A DNA stretch of 55,404 nt from Minisyncoccota bacterium (GTDB lineage: Bacteria > Patescibacteriota > Minisyncoccia > Phycocordibacterales > Phycocordibacteraceae). The notes beneath the pieces were generated by a model. The model was given only the letters and a program-made list of their open reading frames with translations. It searched no databases and was not told the origin of the DNA. Of the stretch, positions 28,615-41,004 are shown one piece after another (the stretch's first letter is position 1; every line of letters begins with the position of its first letter). The stretch covers positions 1 through 55,404 of the forward strand of contig DATLTM010000023.1 of the NCBI GenBank assembly GCA_035533615.1. The letters are read 5' to 3'. The position numbers were made by a program, and so were the translations under genes.

Positions 28615-29886
28615 ATGCGTGAACGATTTATTGTGGTGCTTTCATACCTCTCAAAACCAGTGATCGCGCTCGGTGGTGCCGTCATCCTCGCAGCGACGGC
28701 CATCGGTTTAGCCTGGCAATCGGGCATCGTTGTGCCGTCTGGGCAGTATACGGCAGCGGTCGTCGCTCCGATTACCGGACAGGGTGGCGCAAGTTCGGAT
28801 CTCTCTTTCCAAGTGCCTGGGCAGGTCGTCGCTATACCGGTCACTACCGGACAGAAAGTCTCCGTCGGTACAACGCTCGTTGTACTTGATCAATCCGCAC
28901 TTCTCGCAACTCGCGCCGGAGCGGTCGCAAATCTCGAAGCAGCGCAGGCAAATCTTGCGGCGCTTGAGGCTGGCACGCGTCCTGAGCAACTCGCAATCGA
29001 CCAGACGGCCGTTACGCAAGCGGCCAATGCGCTTATGACAGCCCTCACGGCGGCTTATACGAATGCTGATGATGCCGTGCATGCGAAAGCCGATCAGGTC
29101 TTCATCAATCCGAGAAATGCAACCGCACAGCTCACGATTCTCGTACCTGATGCAGCGCTCGTGACCCGCGTCCAGACCGAGCGCATAGCACTCGAACCGA
29201 TATTCTCCTCGTGGAGCGCTGTACTCGCGTCTGCAGCAACTAATCCCGAGAGCGCCGCGGCCCCGTCCGAGGCGAACATGAAGACGATCACGACATTTCT
29301 CAATGATCTCACGATAGCCCTCGCGGAGGCATTGCCAGGCAACTCTATTTCTACGGCGACGATTACGGGCTATCAGACGAGCGTGAACACTGGACGTCTG
29401 AACATGCTTGCGGCGCTTTCTAATCTCGTTACGGCTGATACTGCATACAAGGCGGCTGTCGGCGCGCTTACGCTCGCACAGGCGGGGGCGACGCAGAATG
29501 ACCTCGACGCGCAAAAAGCGGTTGTCGACGCCGCGCAGGCGGCGCTTCGCGGCGTCGACGTATCTCTGCAAGAATCCACTCTTGTTGCGCCTCTAGCAGG
29601 CACGATTACCGCGATGAATGCCCGCCTCGGCCAGACCGTCGCCCCTGGCCAGATCCTCGTCTCAATTGAATCGTCCGGGGGGAGTAAACCGAGCGCGCTT
29701 GTGGTGCCGACGAGCAGCGTCATTGCAGATGGCAACCAGGCGTTCGTATATGTGAAGCAGGGAGCCGGTGCGCCGGTGGAAACGCCAGTCACGACTGGTC
29801 TTGTGAGTGCAAGTGGCATGACAGAGATTGTTTCAGGACTCGTCGCGGGGCAGGAGGTATTGACTTTTGGCACGGCTGGAAAATAA
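28615..29886 (+). CDS. HlyD-family membrane fusion / periplasmic adaptor protein
   Basis: N-terminal TM helix, biotinyl-lipoyl-like hairpin (VSVGTTLVVLD; APLAGTITAM), a long Ala-rich coiled coil and a beta-barrel C-terminus. Confidence 0.8.
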   Translation: MRERFIVVLSYLSKPVIALGGAVILAATAIGLAWQSGIVVPSGQYTAAVVAPITGQGGASSDLSFQVPGQVVAIPVTTGQKVSVGTTLVVLDQSALLATRAGAVANLEAAQANLAALEAGTRPEQLAIDQTAVTQAANALMTALTAAYTNADDAVHAKADQVFINPRNATAQLTILVPDAALVTRVQTERIALEPIFSSWSAVLASAATNPESAAAPSEANMKTITTFLNDLTIALAEALPGNSISTATITGYQTSVNTGRLNMLAALSNLVTADTAYKAAVGALTLAQAGATQNDLDAQKAVVDAAQAALRGVDVSLQESTLVAPLAGTITAMNARLGQTVAPGQILVSIESSGGSKPSALVVPTSSVIADGNQAFVYVKQGAGAPVETPVTTGLVSASGMTEIVSGLVAGQEVLTFGTAGK

Positions 29887-29889
29887 CCT

Positions 29890-30507
29890 ATGACATCACT
29901 TCGCACACGAATAATCTATATCGGAGGAACCGCACTTCTCATTATCTTGAGTGGTTTGGCGACGGCTTATTTCATCATTACGAGTACTCGCGTATCGGTG
30001 GATATGGCGAGTATTGAGGCACCACTCATCAGCCTCATGCCGTCCGCGCCTGGTCACCTCGGCGCGCTCTACGTGCACACGGGCGATACCGTTGCCGCCA
30101 ATCAGCCGGTGGCACTCGTTGGTACGCAGGTTATTACGAGTCGGGTAGCGGGTCTTATTGTTGCGGTGGATAACGAAGTTGGTGCCGAAGTGGGAGCCGA
30201 TACGGCTGTCGTGACGATGATCGATCCAACGCAGCTGCGTGTTGTTGGGAGTATTGATGAGAACAAAGGTCTTGCACAGATACGTGTCGGTGACCCGGTT
30301 ACCTTCACGGTCGACGCATTCGGTGGGCAGACTTTTACTGGCATCATCGACGAGATTGCGCCGACGTCTAATCAGTCCGGTATCGTTTTTAATATTTCGG
30401 ATCAGCGCCAGGTTCAGCAGTTCGACGTGAAGGCGCGGTTCGATACGAGCGCATACCCCGAGCTCAGGAATGGTATGTCAGCACGCATGGTGATTTACAC
30501 GCGGTAG
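29890..30507 (+). CDS. short HlyD-like adaptor protein (no coiled-coil hairpin)
   Basis: N-terminal TM helix, lipoyl-like motif (GDTVAANQPVALVG...RVAGLIVAV) and a beta-barrel. Confidence 0.65.
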   Translation: MTSLRTRIIYIGGTALLIILSGLATAYFIITSTRVSVDMASIEAPLISLMPSAPGHLGALYVHTGDTVAANQPVALVGTQVITSRVAGLIVAVDNEVGAEVGADTAVVTMIDPTQLRVVGSIDENKGLAQIRVGDPVTFTVDAFGGQTFTGIIDEIAPTSNQSGIVFNISDQRQVQQFDVKARFDTSAYPELRNGMSARMVIYTR

Positions 30508-30518
30508 CGCGCCACGTT

Positions 30519-32048
30519 ATGGCGGGCACTCTGCAGCAAAACGCGGCTCATCGGCTCACGGGACACCCGTGGCTTGTGCTCGCGACCGTGATGGTGGGCA
30601 CGCTTCTCATCGGTCTCGACCGTACTGTTGTAAATCTCGCAATGCCGAAAATCATGGGCGATTTCGGTATTACGGTCAGCACGGCGGCGTGGATTGCGAC
30701 TGCCTACATTATTAGCAATGCCATCTTCGTGCCGGTGTTCGGTAAGCTTGGTGATCTTTTCGGCAATCGCGTCATCTACCTCTGGAGCTTTGTTGGGTTC
30801 ATCGGCGTATCCATGCTCGCTGGTTTTTCGTGGAATTTCAGCTCACTCATAGTTTTTCGTGTTCTGCAGGGGTTGGTTGGTGCAGCTGTCTATCCCACCG
30901 CCATGTCGCTCATCGCTAAGTCATTCGCCAATCCTAAGGCCCGCGCCCAAGCGCTCGGCATCTGGTCGTCGTCTTTCGCGATATCCGCGGTCATCGGACC
31001 CTTGCTCGGCGGCTACCTTGTTGATAATTTCAATTGGCGCTGGATCTTTTTCATCAATATGCCGGTTGGTATCGCAGGACTCATCATGACACTCATCTTC
31101 TTACCGCATGACCGGCCCGGGGAGCGGGGATCTTTCGACTGGTTCGGTGCTGTGCTTCTCTCGGGGGCCATTACGAGCCTCGTACTTGTGGTTGATCAAG
31201 GTCAGAACTGGGGTTGGCTCTCTTTGGCGAGCATGCTCTGCTACTTCGGCACGCTCATATTTGGCATATTCGTTTATATGTGGGAGACGCGCCATATACA
31301 TCCCATTATTGACTTTAAGTTCTTCAGCAATCCGGTCATCGTTTCGGTGCTTGCGGTCTCGTTTATCTCCTTCGGAGGCATGATGGGCGCGATGCTCCTC
31401 TTGCCGGTATTCGCGCAGACATTTCTGCAATATACCGCAACACAGAGTGGGTATATCTTTGTGCCGATGGCGCTCGCGCTCCCGGTTTTCGCGCCTCTGG
31501 GAGCGCGACTCGCGAATTCCTTCCATCCGCGCTATACGGTTTCGTTTGGGATGGCGCTCTCCGCCCTCGGTCTATTCCTCCTCATGAACCTCGATCCGGC
31601 GATGACATCGTATGATTTCATCCTGCCGCTTGTGCTCTTTGGTGCCGGTCTCGGGCTTGGTATGGCACCCCTTACGAGTGCAGCGACAACGGCTGTTCCG
31701 CTCCACGAAGTCGGCATGTCATCCGGGCTCCTGAACCTCACGCGGAACATTGGTGGGGCATTCGGTATTGCCGTGTTCAGCACCATCCTCGCCAGTGCCA
31801 CCAATGCAAACGTGCTTATGGTAGCGCAGAACTCGCACATACTCGGTTCATCCCCAACAATCCTCGCCGAAGGAGCCCAACTCATTATCATGAAAGCGGA
31901 ACTTCTTTCTTACAGCACGGTCTTCGGTTACGCGGCCGCATCAATGCTTCTCGGCGCGCTCATTGCTCTCTTTTTCTTAAAGACGACGACCGCTGGCGGG
32001 GAAGATATCCCACCGGAGATACTAGCGGAAGCTGCAGCGGGTGGATAA
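30519..32048 (+). CDS. MFS drug:H+ antiporter, DHA2 (EmrB/QacA, 14-TM) family
   Basis: Contains LDRTVVNLAMPKI and GKLGDLFGNR motifs and ~14 hydrophobic segments. Confidence 0.9.
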   Translation: MAGTLQQNAAHRLTGHPWLVLATVMVGTLLIGLDRTVVNLAMPKIMGDFGITVSTAAWIATAYIISNAIFVPVFGKLGDLFGNRVIYLWSFVGFIGVSMLAGFSWNFSSLIVFRVLQGLVGAAVYPTAMSLIAKSFANPKARAQALGIWSSSFAISAVIGPLLGGYLVDNFNWRWIFFINMPVGIAGLIMTLIFLPHDRPGERGSFDWFGAVLLSGAITSLVLVVDQGQNWGWLSLASMLCYFGTLIFGIFVYMWETRHIHPIIDFKFFSNPVIVSVLAVSFISFGGMMGAMLLLPVFAQTFLQYTATQSGYIFVPMALALPVFAPLGARLANSFHPRYTVSFGMALSALGLFLLMNLDPAMTSYDFILPLVLFGAGLGLGMAPLTSAATTAVPLHEVGMSSGLLNLTRNIGGAFGIAVFSTILASATNANVLMVAQNSHILGSSPTILAEGAQLIIMKAELLSYSTVFGYAAASMLLGALIALFFLKTTTAGGEDIPPEILAEAAAGG

Positions 32049-32055
32049 TACATCT

Positions 32056-32517
32056 ATGACGAAACTTCTTCATACAAAACGAACACCGCACACTTCGCAC
32101 AATATCACTCACGCAATATCGCTCTTCTTCGCCGTACGCGGAATCATGCGCACAAGAATTGCCAGCGGGAAGAAAGTTGATCCCTTAACATGGCTGCGTA
32201 TCGAAACGATGAAATTCATCAGTGACCACAGAGAGCCGATGATGAAAGAAATTGCCGACCACCTTTCGATCACCGCTCCGTCGGCGACATCACTCATCCG
32301 TGGGTTGATGAAAAGCGGGCTGGTCGCACACGCAGTGGATCGTCGGGATAAGCGGACTGCGCGGCTCCGACTCACCGCCAAAGGAGTTATCGAGCTCAAA
32401 GAATCAGTAGCGCGCGGTACTAAACTCCTGAAAGGGCTATTCACTGTCTTGTCAAGACAGGAGCTTGCAGCGTTCATCACCGCGCTTGAGCGCATCAAAG
32501 AGAAAGCGGACGAATAA
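32056..32517 (+). CDS. MarR-family transcriptional regulator
   Basis: Winged HTH MKEIADHLSITAPSATSLIRGLMKSGLVAHAVDRRDKRTARLRLTAKG. It is the last gene of the efflux operon. Confidence 0.8.
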   Translation: MTKLLHTKRTPHTSHNITHAISLFFAVRGIMRTRIASGKKVDPLTWLRIETMKFISDHREPMMKEIADHLSITAPSATSLIRGLMKSGLVAHAVDRRDKRTARLRLTAKGVIELKESVARGTKLLKGLFTVLSRQELAAFITALERIKEKADE

Positions 32518-32529
32518 AATAAGGAGAAC

Positions 32530-34047
32530 TTACGCGAATCCAGGGAAGTAGTCGGTCTCGATGCGGGAGCGGGAGACCCCCATACCCCGCAGGGTCTTTT
32601 TGAATGACTCGACCATTCCGTGCGGGCCGGAGATGTAGAACGTGCGTTCTCGATAATCTGGGACTTCTCGTTCAATGAGTGCCTCGTCAATCATTCCCGT
32701 GTACGTTCCTGGAATTCTGGCTGATTCATTGGTGATCGCATATACAGTTTTCATGCCAATCGTTCGCCGCGCCGTATCAAAAATGTCTTTATAGGCGATT
32801 TCGGACGCAGTTTTGTTTGCATACAGGAGCGTGACAGGACGCCTGTCTTTAGTGTTGATAAGCTGCTGCACCATACTGCGGAAGGGCGTAATGCCGATTC
32901 CGCCGGCGATGAATACGAGCTTCTTCGTTTTATTTTTCGGCAGGACGAAGTCTCCCGCGAGATGCGAGACAGAAAGCGTATCATTCACTTGCATCGCGTT
33001 GAGCGCGCGTTTGAAACTGCTTTGCGATTCGTAGAATTTCGCACCGATGCGGATCATCCCGTCGGCTTCTGTTGGCGAGGATGCAATAGTGAAGAAACGG
33101 CGATTGCCGCGACTATCGGCGGGGCGATGCGGGAGTGTCCACTCAAGATATTGTCCCGCACGAAACAGAAACGGACGATCCGGCGCGAATACGAACTCAT
33201 AAGTACCGTTCGCGAGTCTATTCTTCGCAATGAGTGTAAGCACGAAACGCCCCTGTGGGCTGACGACCGAGGCATAGAGATTACCGATAAGCAACGCGAG
33301 CTCCGGCGTAAAATAGAAAGAGCCGATATGGATATTCGGCGCGAAAAGGAAGCCGACAATCGCACCGTAGATGAGTCGCAAGGAGCGGCTGGGCGGCATC
33401 GTAAGCGGTTCAGTAAGCATCACAAGCCCGAGGAAGAAGAACGGAGAATGCAGAAGAGTTTGAACGACCGCTGTCGGTCCGTTTCCGTTCGCTGTTGCAA
33501 CAATCGTGAAGAGTGTGACGACTGCAAATGCAAGCACTAGGTCGAAGCGGCGGATCTTGCGTACGATGAGCAGCCCGCCGAGGAACACGAACGGCAGGAG
33601 CGAGAGATTCCCGCCGACCCACCAGGATGCCGACTGATTGAGGATGAGCGCTGAGAGCGCAACGCCGAACGCCGCCGGGTTGAAAATATGCTTCTTACCG
33701 ATGGCGAAGATATATTTTGACGCCATTGCCCAGGCCGATGCGAAGATGAGGAAACCGATACCCACGTAATTCACGAGTGCCACCGGTGTAATGATGAGCG
33801 CGAGGATAAGGCCGGTGATGTATACCGACTCCACATTTGTTGCTGCCCCGAAGCTTTTCGCGAATATTGTGTTGGTTGCCCAGCACGTCGTGAGGATAAT
33901 CAGTGTCGAGAAAGCGAGATCTGCGGGATGGTAAGGAAGAATGCCGAAGAGACTGAAGAGTGCCGCCAGGCCAAGCAGGACGAGAAGGTAGTACAGCACG
34001 AGGCGGTACATCGTGATTGTATTGAGGAAGTCGTCAACGAAAGCCAT
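32530..34047 (-). CDS. fusion protein: N-terminal RnfD/NqrB-like polytopic membrane domain plus C-terminal FNR-like FAD/NAD(P)-binding reductase domain
   Basis: N-terminal part has KHIFNPAAFG and MLTEPLT motifs. C-terminal part has RFFTIASSP (FAD) and LVFIAGGIGITPFRSM (NAD(P)). Confidence 0.75.
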   Translation of the reverse strand: MAFVDDFLNTITMYRLVLYYLLVLLGLAALFSLFGILPYHPADLAFSTLIILTTCWATNTIFAKSFGAATNVESVYITGLILALIITPVALVNYVGIGFLIFASAWAMASKYIFAIGKKHIFNPAAFGVALSALILNQSASWWVGGNLSLLPFVFLGGLLIVRKIRRFDLVLAFAVVTLFTIVATANGNGPTAVVQTLLHSPFFFLGLVMLTEPLTMPPSRSLRLIYGAIVGFLFAPNIHIGSFYFTPELALLIGNLYASVVSPQGRFVLTLIAKNRLANGTYEFVFAPDRPFLFRAGQYLEWTLPHRPADSRGNRRFFTIASSPTEADGMIRIGAKFYESQSSFKRALNAMQVNDTLSVSHLAGDFVLPKNKTKKLVFIAGGIGITPFRSMVQQLINTKDRRPVTLLYANKTASEIAYKDIFDTARRTIGMKTVYAITNESARIPGTYTGMIDEALIEREVPDYRERTFYISGPHGMVESFKKTLRGMGVSRSRIETDYFPGFA

Positions 34048-34758
34048 TTAGTTCTTCGCCTGTGCAAGTGCCGACGCGAGTGATTGTACGAAAGCCATGC
34101 TCGTTTCGGTCGCACCCGAAACACCGCTTACGTTTGCGCTCTGGGCCTGTATGGCTTCTTGGGTAAGCATTGGCATTGCCTGACTGTTGACGTATTGCGA
34201 GTAACTGTGTTCGTTCGGGTATTGCAGGAATTGTACATCGGAGAGCTTGCCGTTCGTCACTATGGCCTGCACCTGGACGGTGCCATAATAAGCGTCCGCA
34301 GAATCACCGGTATACGAGCCGTCGACATATTGGCCGGACGGTTTTTGTGGCACGGGAACTGGAGCCGGCGCCGGAGTATTCACTTTTGTCTTTGGAGGCT
34401 GAGAAGGAGTTGTTTTTGTTGGTAATGGCGTCACCGGAGGAACTGTCGTTGTCTGTGATGATACTGCCGGAGTTGTCATTGCGAATGACTGCGAGCTACC
34501 GATGTTTTGCCACACGGCGTAAATGACGGAAACGGCAATGAGCGCGAAGGAGAGGGCAAATTTTCTGCCGGCAATTGCGTTCGGCGCAGCTGGAACGGAG
34601 GAGATCTTCGGCGATACGGTTGTTGCAGCGCGATCGAACGCCTCATTGATGTCCTGTTCGCTCCATTCATTTAGAAGAAGTGACCGGCGTATTGTCTCAT
34701 GCGGCGTGCCAGCAGCCGATTGCTCGCGGATATAGGCGATTAATTGGGGGGTGGTCAT
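34048..34758 (-). CDS. membrane-anchored extracytoplasmic FMN_bind-domain protein (ApbE flavinylation substrate motif)
   Basis: Single TM helix, P/T-rich linker and YVDGSYTG...VSGVSGATETS motif. Its stop abuts the downstream start. Confidence 0.8.
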   Translation of the reverse strand: MTTPQLIAYIREQSAAGTPHETIRRSLLLNEWSEQDINEAFDRAATTVSPKISSVPAAPNAIAGRKFALSFALIAVSVIYAVWQNIGSSQSFAMTTPAVSSQTTTVPPVTPLPTKTTPSQPPKTKVNTPAPAPVPVPQKPSGQYVDGSYTGDSADAYYGTVQVQAIVTNGKLSDVQFLQYPNEHSYSQYVNSQAMPMLTQEAIQAQSANVSGVSGATETSMAFVQSLASALAQAKN

Positions 34759-34805
34759 GCAGAAGGTAGGTACTATATAGATACACGGGAGGCGCGGCAA
34801 TTATT

Positions 34806-35516
34806 TCATTCACCGTTCGGCACGATATGGACGCCGTATGCATAGACGATTCCTTGCGTCAGGCGGCCCGCAGCATACACTTTGTCGCCAATAGAAAGCG
34901 TCGCAAGGTCGAATCCGACCGGCGGAGTGATAGTCCAGGATCCCTCATCAGTATCGCGGTCGGCATCGTTATGGGAAATAACGAATATTGGTCCGGTGAT
35001 AGACGTGACATAGCCGCGGTAGACACCCTGGTCTGTATGTGAGTCGTATATCCCTTCGTAGAAGGATCCGAGGACTGGCAGTCGATCGTTATCGGCTTCA
35101 GAGAGGAGGTAGGCATGAAGCGGTGTAACACTGACAAGTACGCTGCCGATGACCCCTATGCCCAGTATCAGGAGGAAGACGCGCACAAGCGGGAATCGAT
35201 ACGCTGTTGTATAGCGTCGTACCAGAAATTCAAGGGCGATAAGCAATATCACAAACAAAAACAGAGACGTCCACGGGAAGAGCACGATGAACGTCACGAG
35301 ACCTTGCTCGCCGAACTCAAGAAGGAATTGCACACCACTTTTGTGAATGCTGAAAAATGCGAAGCTAAGTACAAAAAGAGCTCCAACGACCGCGAGCAGG
35401 GAAATAGCGCCGATCAGAACGGCGCGGAATACGAAAAAGATCCAGGAATGCATGGAAACGGTCCCAATACGGATTTTCTCGAGCACACTCTTTTGAATGT
35501 CATTCTCCTGCAACAT
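34806..35516 (-). CDS. polytopic membrane protein, possible anti-sigma factor partner
   Basis: It overlaps the 3' end of the ECF sigma gene by 17 nt. It has 4-5 TM segments and no recognised motif. Confidence 0.5.
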   Translation of the reverse strand: MLQENDIQKSVLEKIRIGTVSMHSWIFFVFRAVLIGAISLLAVVGALFVLSFAFFSIHKSGVQFLLEFGEQGLVTFIVLFPWTSLFLFVILLIALEFLVRRYTTAYRFPLVRVFLLILGIGVIGSVLVSVTPLHAYLLSEADNDRLPVLGSFYEGIYDSHTDQGVYRGYVTSITGPIFVISHNDADRDTDEGSWTITPPVGFDLATLSIGDKVYAAGRLTQGIVYAYGVHIVPNGE

Positions 35517-36060
35517 ATTTTTTTATCGCTTCGCGCGCGCGGCGGAGGCGGATGCCGACCGTTCCGACCGGGACATGGAGGACGTCTGCGATTTCTTGGT
35601 ATCCCAGCTGCTCAAGATAGTACAGCACGACTACTTCGCGGTAGATGGGAGGGAGTGCGTTAAGTCCGCGATCGACAAGCGCGCGCATGTGCTCCCGCTC
35701 TTCATCTTCCGCGGGGTCTCTCTCATATGCGGCATGCGCCGAGAATAAGTCGAGGTCGACCGTGATAAGCGGATGGCGGCTATTGTGTCGAAGCGTATTT
35801 ACAAACATATTGTGTGCGATGCGGTATATCCAGGGCGAAAAAGGCCTCGCAGCATCATAGCCCAGAATGTTCTGATAAGTTTTTATGAACACCTCCTGTA
35901 CGACGTCTTCGATAGGGGCGTTGTCAGACAAGAATTTTCTGCCGTAGCGGAGCAGTTTGGGCTGGTATCTACTCATGAGTACACCGAAGGCGGCTTCATT
36001 CTTTCCCTGTACGAGCGCCGCAAGTTCTTCGTCAGTCTTCTGATTGAGCATCTCGTTCAT
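35500..36060 (-). CDS. ECF-type RNA polymerase sigma-70 family factor
   Basis: Region 2 (DVVQEVFIKTYQN...FSPWIYRIAHN) and region 4 (LPPIYREVVVLYYLEQLGYQEIADVLHVPVGTVGIRLRRA). The start is taken at MNEMLNQ. Confidence 0.85.
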   Translation of the reverse strand: MNEMLNQKTDEELAALVQGKNEAAFGVLMSRYQPKLLRYGRKFLSDNAPIEDVVQEVFIKTYQNILGYDAARPFSPWIYRIAHNMFVNTLRHNSRHPLITVDLDLFSAHAAYERDPAEDEEREHMRALVDRGLNALPPIYREVVVLYYLEQLGYQEIADVLHVPVGTVGIRLRRAREAIKKYVAGE

Positions 36061-36067
36061 TTGTCTC

Positions 36068-36073
36068 AGTATA
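36068..36073 (-). promoter_or_regulatory. putative -10 hexamer TATACT (minus strand), 7 nt before the sigma-factor ATG
   Basis: The minus strand reads GGGTATACTGAGACAAATG. Confidence 0.35.
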
Positions 36074-36170
36074 CCCAAGCACTAAGAGTTTAGCTCTGGG
36101 TATATCGCGTCGGTTGAAATATCTACCATTTACTGGTGTACTACTGGTAGTTACTAACCAAGAGGATTGC

Positions 36171-37538
36171 ATGGATAAACCTAACCACCACGAACATCCG
36201 GAACTTTGGTTTCGGCCGAGTCCGGCCATGCCTCTCCCCGCTCTTTTATCGCTCATTGAAAAAGAAGAAATAACAGAGACGTTGCGCCTTGGAAGGCGCG
36301 ATGGGGCGCATCAGAAGGGATATATTCCCGGCACCGTAGCGACGCTGCGTCTGTTCGATGCTGATTGGCAGGAACGGTTACACAAGCGAATACGTGTCAC
36401 CAACGTCGTAAGCAAATCACTTCACGAGTTTCCAAATTGGCAGTCAGTGCAACAGGAACTTTCTTTTTTTGAGAATCGGCCAATTGCACTGGACGAAATA
36501 GTTAGCATCGTTGAATTCTCGTTTCCTGGGAAAGAAAGGAGAGGCATAATGAATATCCTGGATCAACTCAACCGAATAGCAGAGAATAATATTCCGGATC
36601 TATCGGGGCCGTTTTCAGTTATCATCGGAGAACATCCTTCGGCATATGCGGTGAGTCCGCGGATGTGGAACAAGGAAATCGAGCTTCGCGGAGTAGAAGG
36701 TCATTTCTTTCCCATCGATATTCCGTTCGAACGGAAGGACGATCTTACAGTGCTACTTAACGTAGCATTCGCCGCCGGCCCTGAATACTTCCGGGTGCTT
36801 ACCATCACCAATCCGTACAAGATTCACGCTCTGGAGTACTTCCGTGCGCAAGCGAAGAAGTTTCCCGGCCGGGTGGTGATTTCTGCGGATGCGGAGCGTA
36901 TCGGAGCGACCAACCAGATACTGATTGGCCCCGACAGCATCTTCAACGTCATTAATTCTGACGGACAGGGGATGGTGAACGCGATACAAACCTATTTCGT
37001 CGAAATGGGAGGGAAAAATCTCGCAGACAAAAGAATCGGGATTATCGGCGCAGGAGGAGCCGCACGTGGCATTATCTACGAACTGATGAAACTGACCGGC
37101 ACCGGGAAGGGGAGTATCGCACTCTTTAACCGTACGGTGGAGAAAGCGGAGGCGCTCATACTTGAATTCAAGCGGTTCTTCTCCGGAGCGAAGATAACCG
37201 TGCACCCGCTCGCTGACCTCCCTAGGTTAGCGACGGGTCATGATGTCCTCGTCTCTTCCATTACGGATGGCGATCCGTTGTTTGAGCACAATGTGTACAG
37301 GACGCTCATACCGGGAACACTCATCGTGGATGCAAACTATGGCGAGAAGTCAGTGCTAGAAAAGCATGCGGATACGCAGGCATCTGACAAGGATCTCGCG
37401 GTCCGCGACGGAAGCGGCATGGTCGTAGAAGGGTACATCATTCCTTCCCAGGCGCTCGCGAAGCTTTGGGGGTATGAGGTTCCTTTTACGGTGTATGAAG
37501 AAATCGGCGCGCTGTTTAACTACAAGCCGAGGAAATAA
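36171..37538 (+). CDS. shikimate/quinate dehydrogenase-family (AroE-like) protein with a ~140-aa N-terminal extension
   Basis: AroE-type motifs AYAVSPRMWN, LTITNPYK, GATNQI and NSDGQG, plus Rossmann IGIIGAGGAARG. The N-terminal domain is unassigned. Confidence 0.7.
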   Translation: MDKPNHHEHPELWFRPSPAMPLPALLSLIEKEEITETLRLGRRDGAHQKGYIPGTVATLRLFDADWQERLHKRIRVTNVVSKSLHEFPNWQSVQQELSFFENRPIALDEIVSIVEFSFPGKERRGIMNILDQLNRIAENNIPDLSGPFSVIIGEHPSAYAVSPRMWNKEIELRGVEGHFFPIDIPFERKDDLTVLLNVAFAAGPEYFRVLTITNPYKIHALEYFRAQAKKFPGRVVISADAERIGATNQILIGPDSIFNVINSDGQGMVNAIQTYFVEMGGKNLADKRIGIIGAGGAARGIIYELMKLTGTGKGSIALFNRTVEKAEALILEFKRFFSGAKITVHPLADLPRLATGHDVLVSSITDGDPLFEHNVYRTLIPGTLIVDANYGEKSVLEKHADTQASDKDLAVRDGSGMVVEGYIIPSQALAKLWGYEVPFTVYEEIGALFNYKPRK

Positions 37539-37586: not shown

Positions 37587-38591
37587 TTATGAAACGATGT
37601 TTGTCGGCGAACCCGCCGCGAAATTCTTTATATTCTCAACAGTCGTGTCGAGGATTCGCTCGATTGCTTCAATTGTGTTAAACGCAGTGTGCGGGGTAAC
37701 GATGACACGCGGATGGTCGATGAGATAGTGGTCTTCAAGGAGGGTCTTAATCGCGTCGGCATTTGGATGCGGCACGGTGAAGAGGGCCGTTTCGTTCGCC
37801 AAGTCGCCCTCCTCTTCGAGTACGTCGAGTGCGGCGCCCGCAAGCATTCCGGACCGAAGCGCTCCGACGAGAGCGTCGGTCTCGACGACTGCGCCGCGCG
37901 CAGTGTTGACGAGGTACGCGCCTTTCTTAATATTCACGATATTCTCCTTGTTGATGAGATGGTGTGTATGCTCGTTATAGGGAACATGGAGTGTGACGAT
38001 GTCAGCTTGCGCGAGCAGATCGGGGAGCGCCGTGTAGGCGAAACCGAGCGTGTGGGAGAGGTCCCGGTTCGGATATGCATCAAAACCGATAATTTTCATC
38101 CCGAAGCCCTGGGCCATGCGGATGACGTGCGCGCCGATGTGCCCGGTGCCGATAACCCCGAGCGTCTTTCCTGCGAGGTCAAAGCCGCGCAGACCGTCGA
38201 GTGAGAACGTTCCGGTCTCGCGCACACGCTCGTCGGCGTCGATGACGCGGCGCGAAAGCGCGAGGATGAGCGCGAACGCGAATTCCGCGACGGTGTTCTC
38301 GCCGTAGAAGGGCACGTTCGCGACCGTGATACTCCTTGCCGATGCCGCCGCGAGATCGATATGGTCGAATCCGGTCGAACGGGTCGCGATGAGTTTCAGA
38401 GAAGGGAATCGGCTTATCTCCGCTTCAGTAATTGGCGATTCGATAAACGTGCAGAGGACCTGCGCACTGGGGTCGGTCAATTCCGGGTAGGTGGCCAGAG
38501 ACCTCTCGTGGAAATCAATATCGTGTCCTGGCAGTCTCTCCCGCACGTATGCTTCTTCCCACGCCTCGCCCGAGAAATAATGAATTTTCAT
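37587..38591 (-). CDS. D-isomer-specific 2-hydroxyacid dehydrogenase
   Basis: NAD motif GVIGTGHIGAHV and a catalytic R/E/H context (NTARG...TPHTAF). Confidence 0.85.
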   Translation of the reverse strand: MKIHYFSGEAWEEAYVRERLPGHDIDFHERSLATYPELTDPSAQVLCTFIESPITEAEISRFPSLKLIATRSTGFDHIDLAAASARSITVANVPFYGENTVAEFAFALILALSRRVIDADERVRETGTFSLDGLRGFDLAGKTLGVIGTGHIGAHVIRMAQGFGMKIIGFDAYPNRDLSHTLGFAYTALPDLLAQADIVTLHVPYNEHTHHLINKENIVNIKKGAYLVNTARGAVVETDALVGALRSGMLAGAALDVLEEEGDLANETALFTVPHPNADAIKTLLEDHYLIDHPRVIVTPHTAFNTIEAIERILDTTVENIKNFAAGSPTNIVS

Positions 38592-40260: not shown

Positions 40261-41004
40261 ATGAAGGAAACGAGACTCATTATGGGTATGCCAATCGAGA
40301 TAGAAATCATAGGCGCCGACGTACGGGCCATGCTCGACGCCGCGTTTACATATCTCACTGCCGTTGACGAGCGCTTCAGTACCTATAAAAAGAACAGCGA
40401 AATCTCACATATCAATCGCGGCGAGCTTGCGCCTGGAGCTGCAAGTGCGGAAATGAAAGAGGTCTTCGTTCTTGCTGAAAAGACAAAGGGAGAGACCGGT
40501 GGATATTTCGACATCCGCCGACCGGACGGCTCGTATGATCCTTCCGGTATCGTGAAGGGCTGGGCGGTACTCAATACCGCCACGCGTATCCGCGCGGCTG
40601 GGTATGAGAATTATTTCGTGAATGCCGGCGGTGACATCGCGATGAACGGGAAGAGCGAAAACGGTGAAGAATGGAGCGTCGGCATCCGCAACCCATTCAA
40701 AAACAGTGAAATTGTGAAGATTGTGTATCCGCGCGGGAATGGCATTGCGACTTCGGGCTCTTACATCCGTGGCGACCACATTTATAATCCGCATAAGCCG
40801 GAGGAAAAACTGCGGGACATCGTGAGCATCACCATCATCGGCCCCGATGTGCTCGAAGCCGATCGCTTTGCGACTGCCGCATTTGCGATGGGGAAGGCCG
40901 GAATCAGCTTCATTGAAAACCTCCCGGGTTTTGAGGGCTACGCGATTGACTCACAGGGCATCGCGACCATGACGAGCGGATTTGGGACGTACACGACTTC
41001 TTAG
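40261..41004 (+). CDS. apbE: FAD:protein FMN transferase (ApbE family)
   Basis: Contains IMGMPIEIEI, GYFDI, DPSGIVKGWA and ATSGSY motifs. Confidence 0.85.
   Translation: MKETRLIMGMPIEIEIIGADVRAMLDAAFTYLTAVDERFSTYKKNSEISHINRGELAPGAASAEMKEVFVLAEKTKGETGGYFDIRRPDGSYDPSGIVKGWAVLNTATRIRAAGYENYFVNAGGDIAMNGKSENGEEWSVGIRNPFKNSEIVKIVYPRGNGIATSGSYIRGDHIYNPHKPEEKLRDIVSITIIGPDVLEADRFATAAFAMGKAGISFIENLPGFEGYAIDSQGIATMTSGFGTYTTS

What the first reader, a model, noticed from the sequence alone, without database searches (positions are those of the whole stretch)
32530..36060. ECF-sigma-linked membrane redox module: RnfD-like/FNR fusion plus an extracytoplasmic FMN_bind protein
- Four co-oriented, tightly packed minus-strand genes encode the module. 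Two overlaps or abutments occur, at 35500..35516 and at 34047/34048.
- The first encodes an ECF sigma factor.
- The second encodes a polytopic membrane protein, a possible anti-sigma factor.
- The third encodes a membrane-anchored FMN_bind protein. It has a P/T-rich stalk and the flavinylation motif SGATETS.
- The fourth encodes a fusion of an RnfD/NqrB-like membrane domain (KHIFNPAAFG, MLTEPLT) to a cytoplasmic FNR-type FAD/NAD(P)H reductase (RFFTIASSP, GGIGITPF).
- Together these would form a minimal chain carrying electrons from cytoplasmic NAD(P)H across the membrane to an extracytoplasmic flavoprotein.
- That is notable if the organism is a reduced-genome fermenter without a respiratory chain.
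- Control by an ECF sigma factor suggests an envelope or redox stress response, or an extracellular electron-transfer function.
Basis: partly seen in the sequence, partly recalled or inferred. Interest (0 to 1): 0.6.

Follow-up and report, generated by a model that had tools for sequence, protein, structure and literature searches.

The report
ECF-switched NQR/RNF-like flavin electron exporter
A tiny-genome soil bacterium with no respiratory chain carries the published but never tested two-protein "NQR/RNF-like" system, thought to pass electrons from NAD(P)H to a flavin protein outside the cell; here a stress-type sigma factor next door appears to switch it on through a conserved promoter.

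Summary
In detail: four tightly packed minus-strand genes encode an ECF sigma factor, a 3-TM membrane protein, a membrane-anchored FMN_bind protein with an SGAT flavinylation motif, and an RnfD/NqrB-like::FNR fusion.

The core pair is not new. It matches the "NQR/RNF-like" system described by comparative genomics (Méheust 2021, eLife; Huang 2024). That system has never been tested experimentally.
- Profile and fold searches hit only RnfD/NqrB for the membrane domain.
- The flavinylated loop of RnfD/NqrB is absent in 72 of 72 homologues.
- The partner's SGA[TS] motif is present in 58 of 61.

1. An ECF-type promoter (TGAAAT-N15/16-CGTGTAT) lies between the anti-sigma-like gene and the FMN_bind gene in all 12 loci that carry this sigma pair, and in none of 69 that lack it.
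2. The strict motif occurs only twice in the 610-kb genome. The second copy faces the divergent AroE-like dehydrogenase gene.
3. The sigma link is confined to certain lineages. The universal core is FMN_bind–ApbE–fusion.
4. The cognate ApbE has no export signal anywhere, which remains unexplained.

The genome also lacks ATP synthase, terminal oxidases, complex I and RnfA/E. I class this as a new member of a known kind, of moderate interest.

The parts
32530..34047 (-). Fusion protein (505 aa). Residues ~1-265 form a 10-helix RnfD/NqrB-like membrane domain that lacks the flavinylated loop. Residues ~268-505 form a cytoplasmic FNR-type FAD/NAD(P)H domain (RFFTIASSP, GGIGITPF, C-terminal YFPGFA).
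   Evidence: Pfam and NCBIfam. AF2 models have pLDDT 85 and 84. Foldseek gives FNR/NqrF/flavohaemoglobin for the C-terminal half and RnfD/NqrB only for the N-terminal half. The PDB profile hit is RnfD. No [ST]GA[ST] occurs in 72 of 72 homologues, and the E of TEPLT is kept in 68 of 72.
34048..34758 (-). NqrC/RnfG-like FMN_bind protein (236 aa from ATG 34758). It has a ~60-aa cytoplasmic head, one TM helix, a P/T-rich stalk and a C-terminal FMN_bind domain.
   Evidence: Pfam FMN_bind at 30.5 bits, above the cut-off of 22. Hydropathy and charge distribution. It is the only FMN_bind protein in the genome. It lies immediately upstream of the fusion in about 76 of 80 related loci.
34099..34119 (-). 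Codons for SGATETS. The predicted ApbE flavinylation site is the Thr of SGAT, residue 217 counted from ATG 34758, 19 residues before the C-terminus.
   Evidence: Translation. An [IV]SGA[TS]x[TS] motif is present in 58 of 61 partner proteins.
34782..34808 (-). ECF-type promoter P1 (TGAAAT-N15-CGTGTA). Its first three bases are the stop codon of the membrane-protein gene, and it lies 23 nt upstream of the FMN_bind ATG.
   Evidence: Both boxes are conserved while the spacer varies, at the same position in all 12 loci with the sigma pair. There are no hits in the 69 loci without it. It is one of only 2 strict matches in the 610-kb genome, against 0.05 expected.
34806..35516 (-). Anti-sigma-like partner (236 aa). 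It has a ~25-aa cytoplasmic N-terminus (DIxxxVLEKIRxGxVxM), three TM segments, and an acidic His/Asp-rich extracytoplasmic beta domain that resembles DUF5666.
   Evidence: It has no Pfam hit. The L054 homologue hits DUF5666 at 2.6e-4. The family has 57 clusters, all annotated 'hypothetical'. Alignment A3. It always sits directly after the ECF gene. The same N-terminal motif follows another ECF gene of this genome.
35500..36060 (-). ECF (group IV) sigma factor, 186 aa from ATG 36060.
   Evidence: Sigma70_r2 and r4_2. TIGR02937 scores 103.7 bits, above the cut-off of 42.9. The start is set by homologues. It is one of 4 ECF-type sigma factors plus 1 primary sigma in the genome.
36068..36073 (-). 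TATACT -10-like box 7 nt before the ECF ATG. This is the arrangement expected for a leaderless transcript.
   Evidence: A TATACT box lies 6-8 nt before the ATG in the window, L003, L006, L010 and L041. That it is a promoter is inferred only.
36115..36140 (+). ECF-type promoter P2 (TGAAAT-N15-GTGTA), facing the divergent AroE-like gene.
   Evidence: It is the second and only other strict genome-wide match. It is conserved in L003.
36171..37538 (+). Shikimate-dehydrogenase-family NAD(P) oxidoreductase with an extra ~150-aa N-terminal domain. It is probably a second member of the ECF regulon.
   Evidence: TIGR00507 scores 73.5 bits against a cut-off of 200, so it is not a bona fide AroE. PDB hits are shikimate dehydrogenases (SDH). 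Promoter P2 lies upstream.
40261..41004 (+). ApbE-type FAD:protein FMN transferase, 247 aa, with no signal peptide or lipobox. It is the only ApbE in the genome.
   Evidence: PF02424 above cut-off. PDB ApbE hits at 1e-17. No hydrophobic segment. In most related loci it sits between the FMN_bind gene and the fusion gene.

Best explanation
The locus encodes a member of the 'NQR/RNF-like' flavinylation-associated electron-transfer system, placed under a dedicated ECF sigma / anti-sigma-like pair.

Proposed mechanism (shown = found in sequence or tool results; inferred = from homology or position):
- The cytoplasmic FNR domain oxidises NAD(P)H on FAD. The domain and its motifs are shown; the activity is inferred.
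- Electrons cross the membrane through the RnfD/NqrB-like domain, probably via a non-covalent flavin site retained from NqrB. This is inferred from Huang 2024.
- They reach an FMN covalently bound to the Thr of SGAT on the tethered outward-facing FMN_bind subunit. That FMN takes the place of the flavinylated loop which this RnfD-like domain has lost. The loss of the loop and the motif are shown; the docking is inferred.
- From there the electrons go to an unidentified extracytoplasmic acceptor.
- ApbE, encoded 6 kb away, attaches the FMN.

Proposed regulation:
- The sigma and membrane-protein genes are probably transcribed from a TATACT-type leaderless promoter.
- When the 3-TM partner's outward DUF5666-like, His/Asp-rich domain senses a signal, the sigma factor is released.
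- The sigma factor then fires two ECF-type promoters. One drives FMN_bind plus fusion; the other drives the divergent AroE-like dehydrogenase.
- The motif and its exclusive co-occurrence with this sigma are shown. Recognition by this sigma and the anti-sigma function are inferred.

In a cell without respiratory chain or ATP synthase, the likeliest role is an inducible outlet for NAD(P)H electrons to the cell surface: redox balancing, reduction of an oxidant, or Fe(III) reduction.
For: - Domain content.
- RnfD/NqrB homology of the membrane domain: Pfam 4.7e-6; PDB profile search with RnfD as the sole hit; Foldseek top 15 hits all RnfD/NqrB, TMq 0.57-0.71, with the next hit at E>0.1.
- FNR domain.
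- Published definition and model of the system: PMC8238504 section 13 and Huang 2024 section 8.
- Loss of the flavinylation site in 72 of 72 homologues.
- SGA[TS] motif in 58 of 61 partner proteins.
- One FMN_bind gene and one ApbE gene in the genome.
- FMN_bind lies next to the fusion in about 76 of 80 loci from CPR, Alphaproteobacteria and Chloroflexota.
- ECF promoter motif in 12 of 12 loci with the sigma pair and 0 of 69 without. It has 2 genome-wide hits against 0.05 expected, both within 1.3 kb of the sigma gene.
- The motif fits the ECF class pattern of tgaAAC at -35 and CGT(A/C) at -10 (PMC5758882).
- A second, unrelated ECF pair with its own ECF-type motif sits upstream of FMN_bind in L021, L032, L033 and L038.
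- No ATP synthase, oxidases, complex I or RnfA/E in the genome.
Against: - Nothing has been tested experimentally, for this locus or for any member of the family.
- The acceptor is unknown.
- The ApbE has no export signal, although its substrate domain is predicted to face outward. The maturation step is therefore unexplained.
- The Pfam RnfD hit is 1 bit under the gathering score.
- The 236-aa protein has no recognisable anti-sigma domain. Its cytoplasmic N-terminus is only ~25 aa and it has no HxxxCxxC motif.
- No RNA data exist for this organism: only soil DNA runs were found. The promoters are therefore predictions.
- Across the phylum, full-length relatives of the membrane protein mostly sit away from the fusion.
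Confidence: 0.75

Rival explanations
1. Minimal ion-translocating redox machine. The RnfD/NqrB-like domain keeps part of the cation pathway of NqrB/RnfD and couples NAD(P)H-to-outside electron transfer to Na+ or H+ export. In a cell with no ATP synthase and no respiratory chain, this would supply membrane potential.
For: - RnfD and NqrB belong to Na+/H+-translocating complexes (the structures hit).
- An invariant membrane-embedded acidic residue, E213 in TEPLT, is kept in 68 of 72 homologues. It aligns with the D of RnfD's TDPVT.
- The genome has no ATP synthase alpha/beta subunits, so it has no other recognisable primary generator of membrane potential.
Against: - RnfA/E and NqrD/E, which carry the intramembrane Fe-S centre and form part of the translocation machinery, are absent.
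- Simple outward electron transfer moves charge in the direction that dissipates an inside-negative potential.
- The driving force depends on an unknown acceptor.
- The conserved acidic residue may serve flavin binding instead.
Confidence: 0.12
2. Assimilatory or dissimilatory Fe(III) (metal) reductase. The tethered flavin would reduce extracellular ferric iron for uptake, as flavinylated PplA does in Listeria extracellular electron transfer. The anti-sigma-like sensor would respond to metal availability.
For: - Méheust 2021 notes VIT1 iron transporters in six NQR/RNF-like clusters.
- A P-type ATPase gene lies within 10 kb in 17 of 81 loci, including this window.
- The sensor domain has conserved His/Asp-rich patches, HDSH and NDxDxDxDxG.
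- An earlier first-reader note reports a metal-homeostasis neighbourhood at 21-27.5 kb of the window. This was not checked here.
Against: - The P-type ATPase proximity is barely above chance and is phylogenetically clustered.
- No iron transporter lies in the operon or carries the ECF motif.
- The second regulon member is a dehydrogenase, not a metal-related gene.
Confidence: 0.2
3. The FMN_bind domain is flavinylated, and perhaps acts, on the cytoplasmic side. The leaderless ApbE would modify it before or without export, so the system would not be an extracytoplasmic electron exporter in the accepted sense.
For: - All 49 cluster-associated ApbE ORFs begin directly with the catalytic core, M[KR]xTR[IL]xMGMP. 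They have no signal peptide, including those in Gram-negative Mesorhizobium.
- Cytoplasmic ApbEs are known, for example in Klebsiella fumarate reductase (PMC12052999).
- The motif lies only ~20 residues from the C-terminus.
Against: - The FMN_bind protein has a cytoplasmic head, a TM helix with K/R on the N side, and a long P/T-rich stalk typical of exported tethers.
- The flavinylated loop that is missing from the RnfD-like domain lies on the outer face in NqrB/RnfD.
- The FNR domain must be cytoplasmic. If all the flavins were inside, a membrane domain would be pointless in an organism with no sign of a quinone-dependent respiratory chain (no oxidases or complex I). Quinone biosynthesis genes were not searched for here.
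Confidence: 0.1
4. The sigma pair is merely a neighbour. The module would be transcribed constitutively or by read-through, and the conserved 'promoter' would be conserved for another reason, such as translational coupling or an RNA element.
For: - Most loci (about 64 of 81) have no ECF gene adjacent.
- In ECF-less relatives, FMN_bind follows a 2-hydroxyacid dehydrogenase gene by 7-12 nt.
- The simple sigma-70 scan also finds a weak TTGCCG-17-TATAGT match in the same gap, no better than chance.
Against: - Two conserved blocks at fixed spacing with a freely varying spacer are the signature of a promoter.
- The motif is present in 12 of 12 loci with this sigma and 0 of 69 without.
- The only other copy in the genome lies in the sigma gene's own divergent intergenic region.
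- L054 has a copy in front of its sigma gene.
- A different ECF pair with a different ECF-type motif occupies the equivalent place in four other loci.
Confidence: 0.08

Closest known systems
NQR/RNF-like flavinylation-associated system (Méheust et al. 2021, eLife, PMC8238504; Huang et al. 2024, bioRxiv 10.1101/2024.03.13.584918)
   Same: - A two-subunit design: an NqrB/RnfD-like membrane domain fused to a PF00175 NAD-binding domain, plus an NqrC/RnfG-like FMN_bind subunit.
- The flavinylated Thr of NqrB/RnfD is lost.
- An associated ApbE is present.
- The taxonomic range includes the candidate phyla radiation.
   Different: - Here ApbE is displaced about 6 kb from the pair, rather than sitting between the two genes.
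- The pair is preceded by an ECF sigma / 3-TM partner and an ECF-type promoter. Neither paper mentions sigma factors or regulation (0 occurrences of 'sigma' in both; 0 of 'regulat' in Huang 2024, the only one searched for that term).
- The lack of an export signal on the ApbE is also not discussed there: 'cytosolic ApbE' has 0 occurrences in both papers, and Huang 2024 never mentions signal peptides.
Na+-NQR (NqrB, NqrC, NqrF) and Rnf (RnfD, RnfG) complexes
   Same: - The membrane domain has the NqrB/RnfD fold.
- The FMN_bind partner is homologous to NqrC/RnfG and carries the same ApbE motif.
- The FNR domain resembles the FAD/NADH domain of NqrF.
   Different: - NqrD/E or RnfA/E are absent from the genome; NqrA and RnfB/C were not searched for here, and no such subunit is encoded in the cassette.
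- There is no covalent-flavin loop in the membrane domain.
- The electron path is predicted to be one-way outward rather than semicircular.
- Ion pumping is not established.
Listeria monocytogenes flavin-based extracellular electron transfer (Ndh2, EetA/B, FmnB, PplA)
   Same: - Cytoplasmic NADH is the electron source.
- An ApbE-type transferase flavinylates a surface-tethered FMN_bind protein that hands electrons to outside acceptors.
- It operates in a cell that lives by fermentation.
   Different: - Listeria uses an NDH-2 and a quinone pool, and a lipoprotein FmnB with a signal peptide.
- Here a single fusion protein replaces NDH-2 plus quinone, and the ApbE has no signal.
- This comparison rests on my own knowledge plus PMC9973259 as listed.
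Bacillus subtilis-type ECF sigma regulons (sigma W/M/X/V)
   Same: - A group IV sigma with regions 2 and 4.
- A membrane partner gene overlapping the sigma gene.
- A promoter with an AAC-like -35 (TGAAAT) and a CGT-containing -10 at 15-16 nt spacing (PMC5758882).
   Different: - The partner has no recognisable anti-sigma domain.
- In this genome the ECF-type promoter is not in front of the sigma gene, so no autoregulation is apparent. It lies in front of the target genes.
- The best NCBIfam equivalog (SigW) scores 117 bits against a cut-off of 209, so this sigma is not a member of any named sigma family.

Membership tests
NQR/RNF-like system (Méheust 2021 operational definition) | [quoted passage not shown] | tested here: met
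   PF00175 hits at 3e-17. PF03116 hits at 4.7e-6 (26.6 bits against a gathering score of 27.7). Many close homologues carry a precomputed PF03116 hit. The PDB profile search returns RnfD only. Foldseek's top 15 hits are all RnfD/NqrB.
NQR/RNF-like system (Méheust 2021 operational definition) | Encoded in a flavinylation-associated gene cluster, within five genes of an FMN_bind or ApbE gene | tested here: met
   The FMN_bind gene abuts the fusion gene. ApbE lies about 6 kb away in the same window.
NQR/RNF-like system (Méheust 2021 operational definition) | [quoted passage not shown] | tested here: inconclusive
   No signal-peptide predictor was available. The FMN_bind protein has an internal signal-anchor-like TM after a 60-aa head. 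ApbE has no hydrophobic segment at all.
NQR/RNF-like system (Huang 2024 description) | The NqrB/RnfD-like subunit lacks the flavinylated Thr, and the NqrC/RnfG-like subunit keeps it | tested here: met
   0 of 72 fusion homologues have [ST]GA[ST] in the membrane domain. The loop between FNPA and RKIRRFD is only 36-37 residues. 58 of 61 partner proteins have SGA[TS].
NQR/RNF-like system | NAD(P)H-driven electron transfer to the extracytoplasmic flavin | not testable with these tools
   This needs biochemistry. No member of the family has been assayed according to the papers found.
Canonical Rnf / Na+-NQR complex (NCBI names some homologues 'RnfABCDGE subunit D') | Presence of the RnfA/E or NqrD/E subunits (PF02508) and the other complex subunits | tested here: not met
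   PF02508 has no match in the 98.5%-complete genome. TIGR01946 rnfD scores 15.6 bits against a cut-off of 207.
ECF (group IV) sigma-70 factors | Regions sigma-2 and sigma-4 only, about 190 aa | tested here: met
   Sigma70_r2 hits at 1e-16 and Sigma70_r4_2 at 3.7e-17. TIGR02937 scores 103.7 bits, above the cut-off of 42.9.
Anti-sigma factors with a class I (ZAS-type) anti-sigma domain | An N-terminal ~70-90-aa helical anti-sigma domain, often with an HxxxCxxC motif | tested here: not met
   Only ~25 residues precede the first TM. There is no Cys motif and no Pfam or NCBIfam hit. The anti-sigma role is inferred from the overlapping gene position and from a recurrent N-terminal motif that also follows another ECF gene.
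ApbE FAD:protein FMN transferase | ApbE fold and family signature | tested here: met
   PF02424 scores 92 bits, above its cut-off. PDB ApbE structures hit at 1e-17.
ApbE FAD:protein FMN transferase (extracytoplasmic lipoprotein type) | N-terminal signal peptide or lipobox placing the enzyme outside the cytoplasm | tested here: not met
   The protein starts MKETRLIMGMPIEIEI and has no hydrophobic segment. The same holds in all 49 related ApbE ORFs.

The most novel reading that the evidence does not exclude
Two linked readings remain open.

(a) In this Paceibacteria lineage the NQR/RNF-like reductase and an AroE-like dehydrogenase may form the entire regulon of a dedicated envelope-sensing unit: the ECF sigma plus a 3-TM partner with an outward His/Asp-rich DUF5666-like domain. 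That would make electron export an inducible stress or redox response. It would be the only membrane redox activity of a cell that has neither respiratory chain nor ATP synthase, and it might be coupled to ion movement.

(b) Across the whole family, a compact leaderless ApbE may flavinylate an exported FMN_bind subunit by a route different from the accepted periplasmic one: either attachment in the cytoplasm before or during export, or export of the enzyme by an unknown route.
Probability: 0.3. Interest if true: 0.65.

Novelty: new member of a known kind. Interest (0 to 1): 0.38.

Why it matters
The NQR/RNF-like system is catalogued but has never been assayed. In ultra-small Patescibacteria it may be the only membrane redox enzyme, so its acceptor and its trigger bear directly on how these cells balance NAD(P)H and interact with their surroundings or hosts.

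The conserved ECF-type promoter found here gives a concrete, testable regulatory handle: the sigma factor, two promoters and a candidate sensor domain.

Close homologues (54-56% identity) occur in cultured Mesorhizobium next to a two-component system. These offer a tractable host for the first experiments on activity, topology and the puzzle of the signal-less ApbE.

Tried and rejected
- Foldseek with the full-length model returned only FNR-domain relatives. The membrane domain had to be modelled alone.
- I looked for an ECF-type autoregulatory promoter upstream of the sigma gene at 36060 and found none. There is only a TATACT box 7 nt from the ATG. A loosened motif also matched inside the sigma coding region in five loci; I attribute this to conservation of the QGKNEAAFGV codons, not to a promoter.
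- The generic sigma-70/terminator scan of 32000-36400 gave no more sites than shuffled sequence.
- I tested genome-level co-occurrence of the membrane-protein family with the fusion across 401 Patescibacteria genomes. There is no enrichment beyond the local lineage, and where both are present in other genomes they lie on different contigs.
- A search for RNA-seq runs found only three soil DNA metagenomes, so there is no transcript evidence.
- The canonical Rnf/Nqr reading, which NCBI uses for some homologues, is rejected because RnfA/E are absent.
- The TTG at 34800 is rejected as the FMN_bind start. It lies inside the promoter spacer, and the ATG at 34758 follows the conserved motif as it does in the relatives.
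- RibF was sought as the FAD source. Only a sub-threshold 17.8-bit hit was found, and I did not pursue it.

Full report
**What is there.** One search shows four co-oriented minus-strand ORFs.
- 35500-36078 encodes an ECF sigma factor. Homologues put the start at ATG 36060.
- 34806-35516 encodes a 236-aa membrane protein.
- 34048-34800 encodes an FMN_bind protein. The likely start is ATG 34758.
- 32530-34047 encodes a 505-aa fusion protein.

The 17-nt overlap at 35500-35516 and the TAA-ATG abutment at 34048/34047 were read directly.

- Fusion: NAD_binding_1 at 3e-17, and NQR2_RnfD_RnfE at 4.7e-6 (26.6 bits, just under the 27.7 gathering score).
- FMN_bind protein: FMN_bind above its cut-off.
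- Sigma factor: Sigma70_r2 and r4_2, with TIGR02937 above its cut-off.
- The 236-aa membrane protein has no family hit.

**Organism.** Names on close homologues place the window in Patescibacteria (Minisyncoccota/Paceibacteria). The assembly is 610 kb and 98.5% complete. The DNA is found in soil metagenomes only.

The genome has no match to:
- ATP synthase alpha/beta;
- haem-copper oxidase;
- cytochrome bd;
- complex-I antiporter-like subunits;
- RnfA/E or NqrD/E.

The genome has exactly one FMN_bind protein, one ApbE, and one primary plus four ECF-type sigma factors.

**Is the membrane domain RnfD/NqrB-like?** Yes.
- A profile of residues 1-270 from 36 homologues, searched against all PDB sequences, returns a single hit: RnfD of Azotobacter vinelandii (8ahx_D, E 4e-5). 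It aligns residues 153-259, including MLTEPLT against TDPVT.
- An AlphaFold2 model of this domain alone (pLDDT 84) was searched with Foldseek against the PDB. The top 15 hits are all RnfD or NqrB chains (E 1e-5 to 5e-4, TMq 0.57-0.71). The next hits are urea transporters at E>0.1.
- The full-length model (pLDDT 85) matches FNR-type reductases, including NqrF and flavohaemoglobins, through its C-terminal half.
- The helix and loop pattern and the positive-inside charges place the FNR domain in the cytoplasm.
- In RnfD/NqrB a long outer loop carries the flavinylated Thr. The corresponding stretch, from FNPA to the RKIRRFD motif, is only 36-37 residues here. No [ST]GA[ST] occurs in the membrane domain of any of 72 homologues.

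**Comparison with the literature.** Méheust et al. 2021 (PMC8238504, section 13) define 'NQR/RNF-like' clusters exactly this way. A protein with an NqrB/RnfD-homologous membrane domain and a PF00175 C-terminal domain lies in a flavinylation gene cluster. They counted 127 such clusters, mainly in Actinobacteria and the candidate phyla radiation. [quoted passage not shown]

Huang et al. 2024 modelled the Ktedonobacter complex. They noted that the NqrB-like subunit has lost its flavinylation site. In their model the NqrC-like subunit's flavin docks next to the retained non-covalent flavin site.

The core of the finding is therefore a rediscovery of a published kind. I found no experimental work on it. 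Earlier notes of this scan say the same. I treated those notes as leads and re-derived each point here.

**Conservation of the cassette.** I fetched 80 loci with full-length homologues (52-78% identity). They come from many CPR lineages, a Chloroflexota genome, and Alphaproteobacteria at 53-57% identity. The latter include cultured Mesorhizobium loti, M. helmanticense, M. qingshengii and M. argentiipisi, plus metagenome-assembled Kaistia, Bauldia and Phyllobacterium.

A tblastn survey and ORF clustering show the following.
- FMN_bind lies directly upstream of the fusion in about 76 of 80 loci.
- In most loci ApbE sits between the two genes (FMN_bind–ApbE–fusion).
- In the window's near relatives ApbE is displaced by a few kb.
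- The ECF gene plus the 236-aa protein gene directly precede FMN_bind in only 11 fetched loci plus the window.
- In Mesorhizobium a histidine kinase / response regulator pair lies next to the cassette instead.
- In ECF-less near relatives, FMN_bind follows a D-2-hydroxyacid dehydrogenase gene by 7-12 nt. The same gene lies at 37587-38591 in the window.

Across 401 Patescibacteria genomes, 51 carry the fusion, so the system is patchy but widespread. The four genes are thus not co-conserved as a unit. The universal unit is FMN_bind + ApbE + fusion.

**The sigma link is real in this lineage.** A two-block motif lies immediately after the stop codon of the membrane-protein gene, 10-30 nt before the FMN_bind start. 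It reads TGAAAT-A-N13-15-[C/G]GTGTAT. It is present at this position in all 12 loci that carry this sigma pair.

Both blocks are conserved while the spacer varies freely. Examples of spacers are AATTGCCGCGCCTCC, AATTTCTATATCCAC, AGAGGCCGCATCGAT and AAACAAACTTGGTCG. The 69 loci without the pair (about 1.2 Mb, both strands) contain no copy.

In the window the motif spans 34808-34782 on the minus strand. The TGA of its -35 box is the stop codon of the membrane-protein gene.

A strict version of the motif occurs only twice in the whole 610-kb genome, against 0.05 expected from shuffles. The second copy is at 36115-36140 on the plus strand. It lies in the intergenic region next to the sigma gene and points at the AroE-like dehydrogenase gene (ATG 36171). 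This copy is conserved in L003. L054 has a copy 40 nt upstream of its own sigma gene.

The pattern fits the ECF class of promoters, with tgaAAC at -35 and CGTA/CGTC at -10 (PMC5758882).

The sigma gene itself is preceded by a TATACT box 6-8 nt before its ATG in five loci. This suggests a leaderless transcript from a housekeeping-type promoter. That point is inference.

Four other loci (L021, L032, L033, L038) show an independent arrangement. They carry a different ECF sigma (about 36% identical) with a 150-160-aa membrane partner, divergently transcribed from FMN_bind. A different ECF-type motif, GCA[CT]GAAA-N14-CGTAT[AT]A, lies upstream of FMN_bind. ECF control of this system has therefore arisen at least twice.

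**The membrane partner.** Its family is small: 57 clusters, all annotated 'hypothetical'. Alignment A3 shows:
- a conserved ~25-aa N-terminus (DIxxxVLEKIRxGxVxMRS);
- three TM segments with conserved LFPW and YRxPL motifs;
- an acidic C-terminal domain with HDSH and NDxDxDxDxGTW patches.

The C-terminal domain of one homologue hits DUF5666 weakly (2.6e-4). The same N-terminal motif follows another ECF gene of this genome (C12). The N-terminal module occurs in 75 of 401 genomes of the phylum.

I conclude it is a CPR-typical sigma partner. It fails the test for a classical anti-sigma domain, so its anti-sigma role is inferred from position only. Full-length relatives in other genomes are mostly not next to the fusion.

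**ApbE.** The only ApbE of the genome (40261-41004) is 247 aa long, starts MKETRLIMGMPIEIEI, and has no hydrophobic segment. It matches solved ApbE structures at 1e-17.

All 49 ApbE ORFs in the related loci start the same way, including those of Gram-negative Mesorhizobium. Yet the FMN_bind substrate has a cytoplasmic head, one TM helix with K/R on the N-terminal side, and a P/T-rich stalk. Its domain should therefore face outward.

Neither paper discusses this for the system. Cytoplasmic ApbEs are known only for cytoplasmic substrates (PMC12052999). This remains unexplained. No RibF above threshold was found either.

**Most likely mechanism.**
- The electron path would be NAD(P)H → FAD (FNR domain) → membrane-domain flavin site → covalent FMN on the tethered subunit → unknown outside acceptor.
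- The FMN_bind and fusion genes, together with an AroE-like NAD(P) dehydrogenase, would be induced when the sigma factor is released from its membrane partner.
- Shown: the domains, the motifs, the loss of the RnfD loop, gene order and its conservation, the promoter motif and its exclusive association with this sigma, and the absence of other respiratory components.
- Inferred: every catalytic step, the topology, sigma-promoter recognition, the anti-sigma function, and the physiological role.

**Verdict.** The system is a new member of a known, bioinformatically described kind. I rate the interest as moderate.

Noticed in passing
window 36115-37538 (+): An AroE-like (shikimate-dehydrogenase-family) gene scores 73 bits against a cut-off of 200 and has an extra ~150-aa N-terminal domain. 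It carries the only other genome-wide copy of the ECF-type motif, so it is probably co-regulated with the flavin module. The arrangement is conserved in L003.
   Followed up: partly
window 40261-41004 (+) and ApbE ORFs of L005-L082: The ApbE enzymes of all NQR/RNF-like clusters examined (49 ORFs from CPR, Mesorhizobium and Kaistia) are compact (~247 aa) and lack any signal peptide or lipobox, although their substrate domain is predicted to face outward.
   Followed up: partly
whole genome G000: The 98.5%-complete 610-kb genome has no match to ATP synthase alpha/beta, COX1, cytochrome bd, complex-I antiporter-like subunits or RnfA/E. It also has no RibF (FAD synthetase) above cut-off; the only hit is 17.8 bits at C25:966-1172.
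   Followed up: partly
window 37587-38591 (-); L007, L008, L009, L012, L016, L023, L025 and others: A D-2-hydroxyacid/D-lactate dehydrogenase gene is the conserved upstream neighbour of the module in 13 near-relative loci. In ECF-less loci it ends 7-12 nt before the FMN_bind gene, which suggests co-transcription of two NADH-reoxidising functions.
   Followed up: no
L047, L052, L056, L062, L063, L070, L073 (Mesorhizobium), L079 (Kaistia): Alphaproteobacteria, including cultured Mesorhizobium strains, carry FMN_bind–ApbE–fusion at 53-57% identity to the CPR protein. In Mesorhizobium a histidine kinase / response regulator pair lies directly downstream. The high identity across phyla suggests horizontal transfer, and these strains offer tractable hosts.
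   Followed up: partly
L021:7036-8235, L033:8195-9424, L038:8625-9359, L032:5286-5953: This is a second, independent arrangement. A divergent ECF sigma (~36% identical) is paired with a 150-160-aa membrane partner. A different ECF-type motif (GCA[CT]GAAA-N14-CGTAT[AT]A) lies upstream of FMN_bind.
   Followed up: partly
G000 C12:16656-18097: Another ECF sigma gene of the same genome overlaps a 291-aa membrane-protein gene. That protein's N-terminus (VLNRIVDERLAPRPRWEF) resembles the N-terminus of the 236-aa protein. This looks like a recurrent CPR sigma-partner module without a Pfam family.
   Followed up: no
L034:7984-9991: This locus has two FMN_bind genes flanking ApbE (FMN_bind–ApbE–FMN_bind–fusion) downstream of the same ECF pair and promoter motif.
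   Followed up: no
window 28615-32517: Downstream of the module lie a convergent MarR-family regulator gene, an MFS transporter gene and two HlyD-like genes. In L010 and L049, HlyD/ABC/FtsX-type efflux genes are interleaved with the ECF pair and the flavin module.
   Followed up: no
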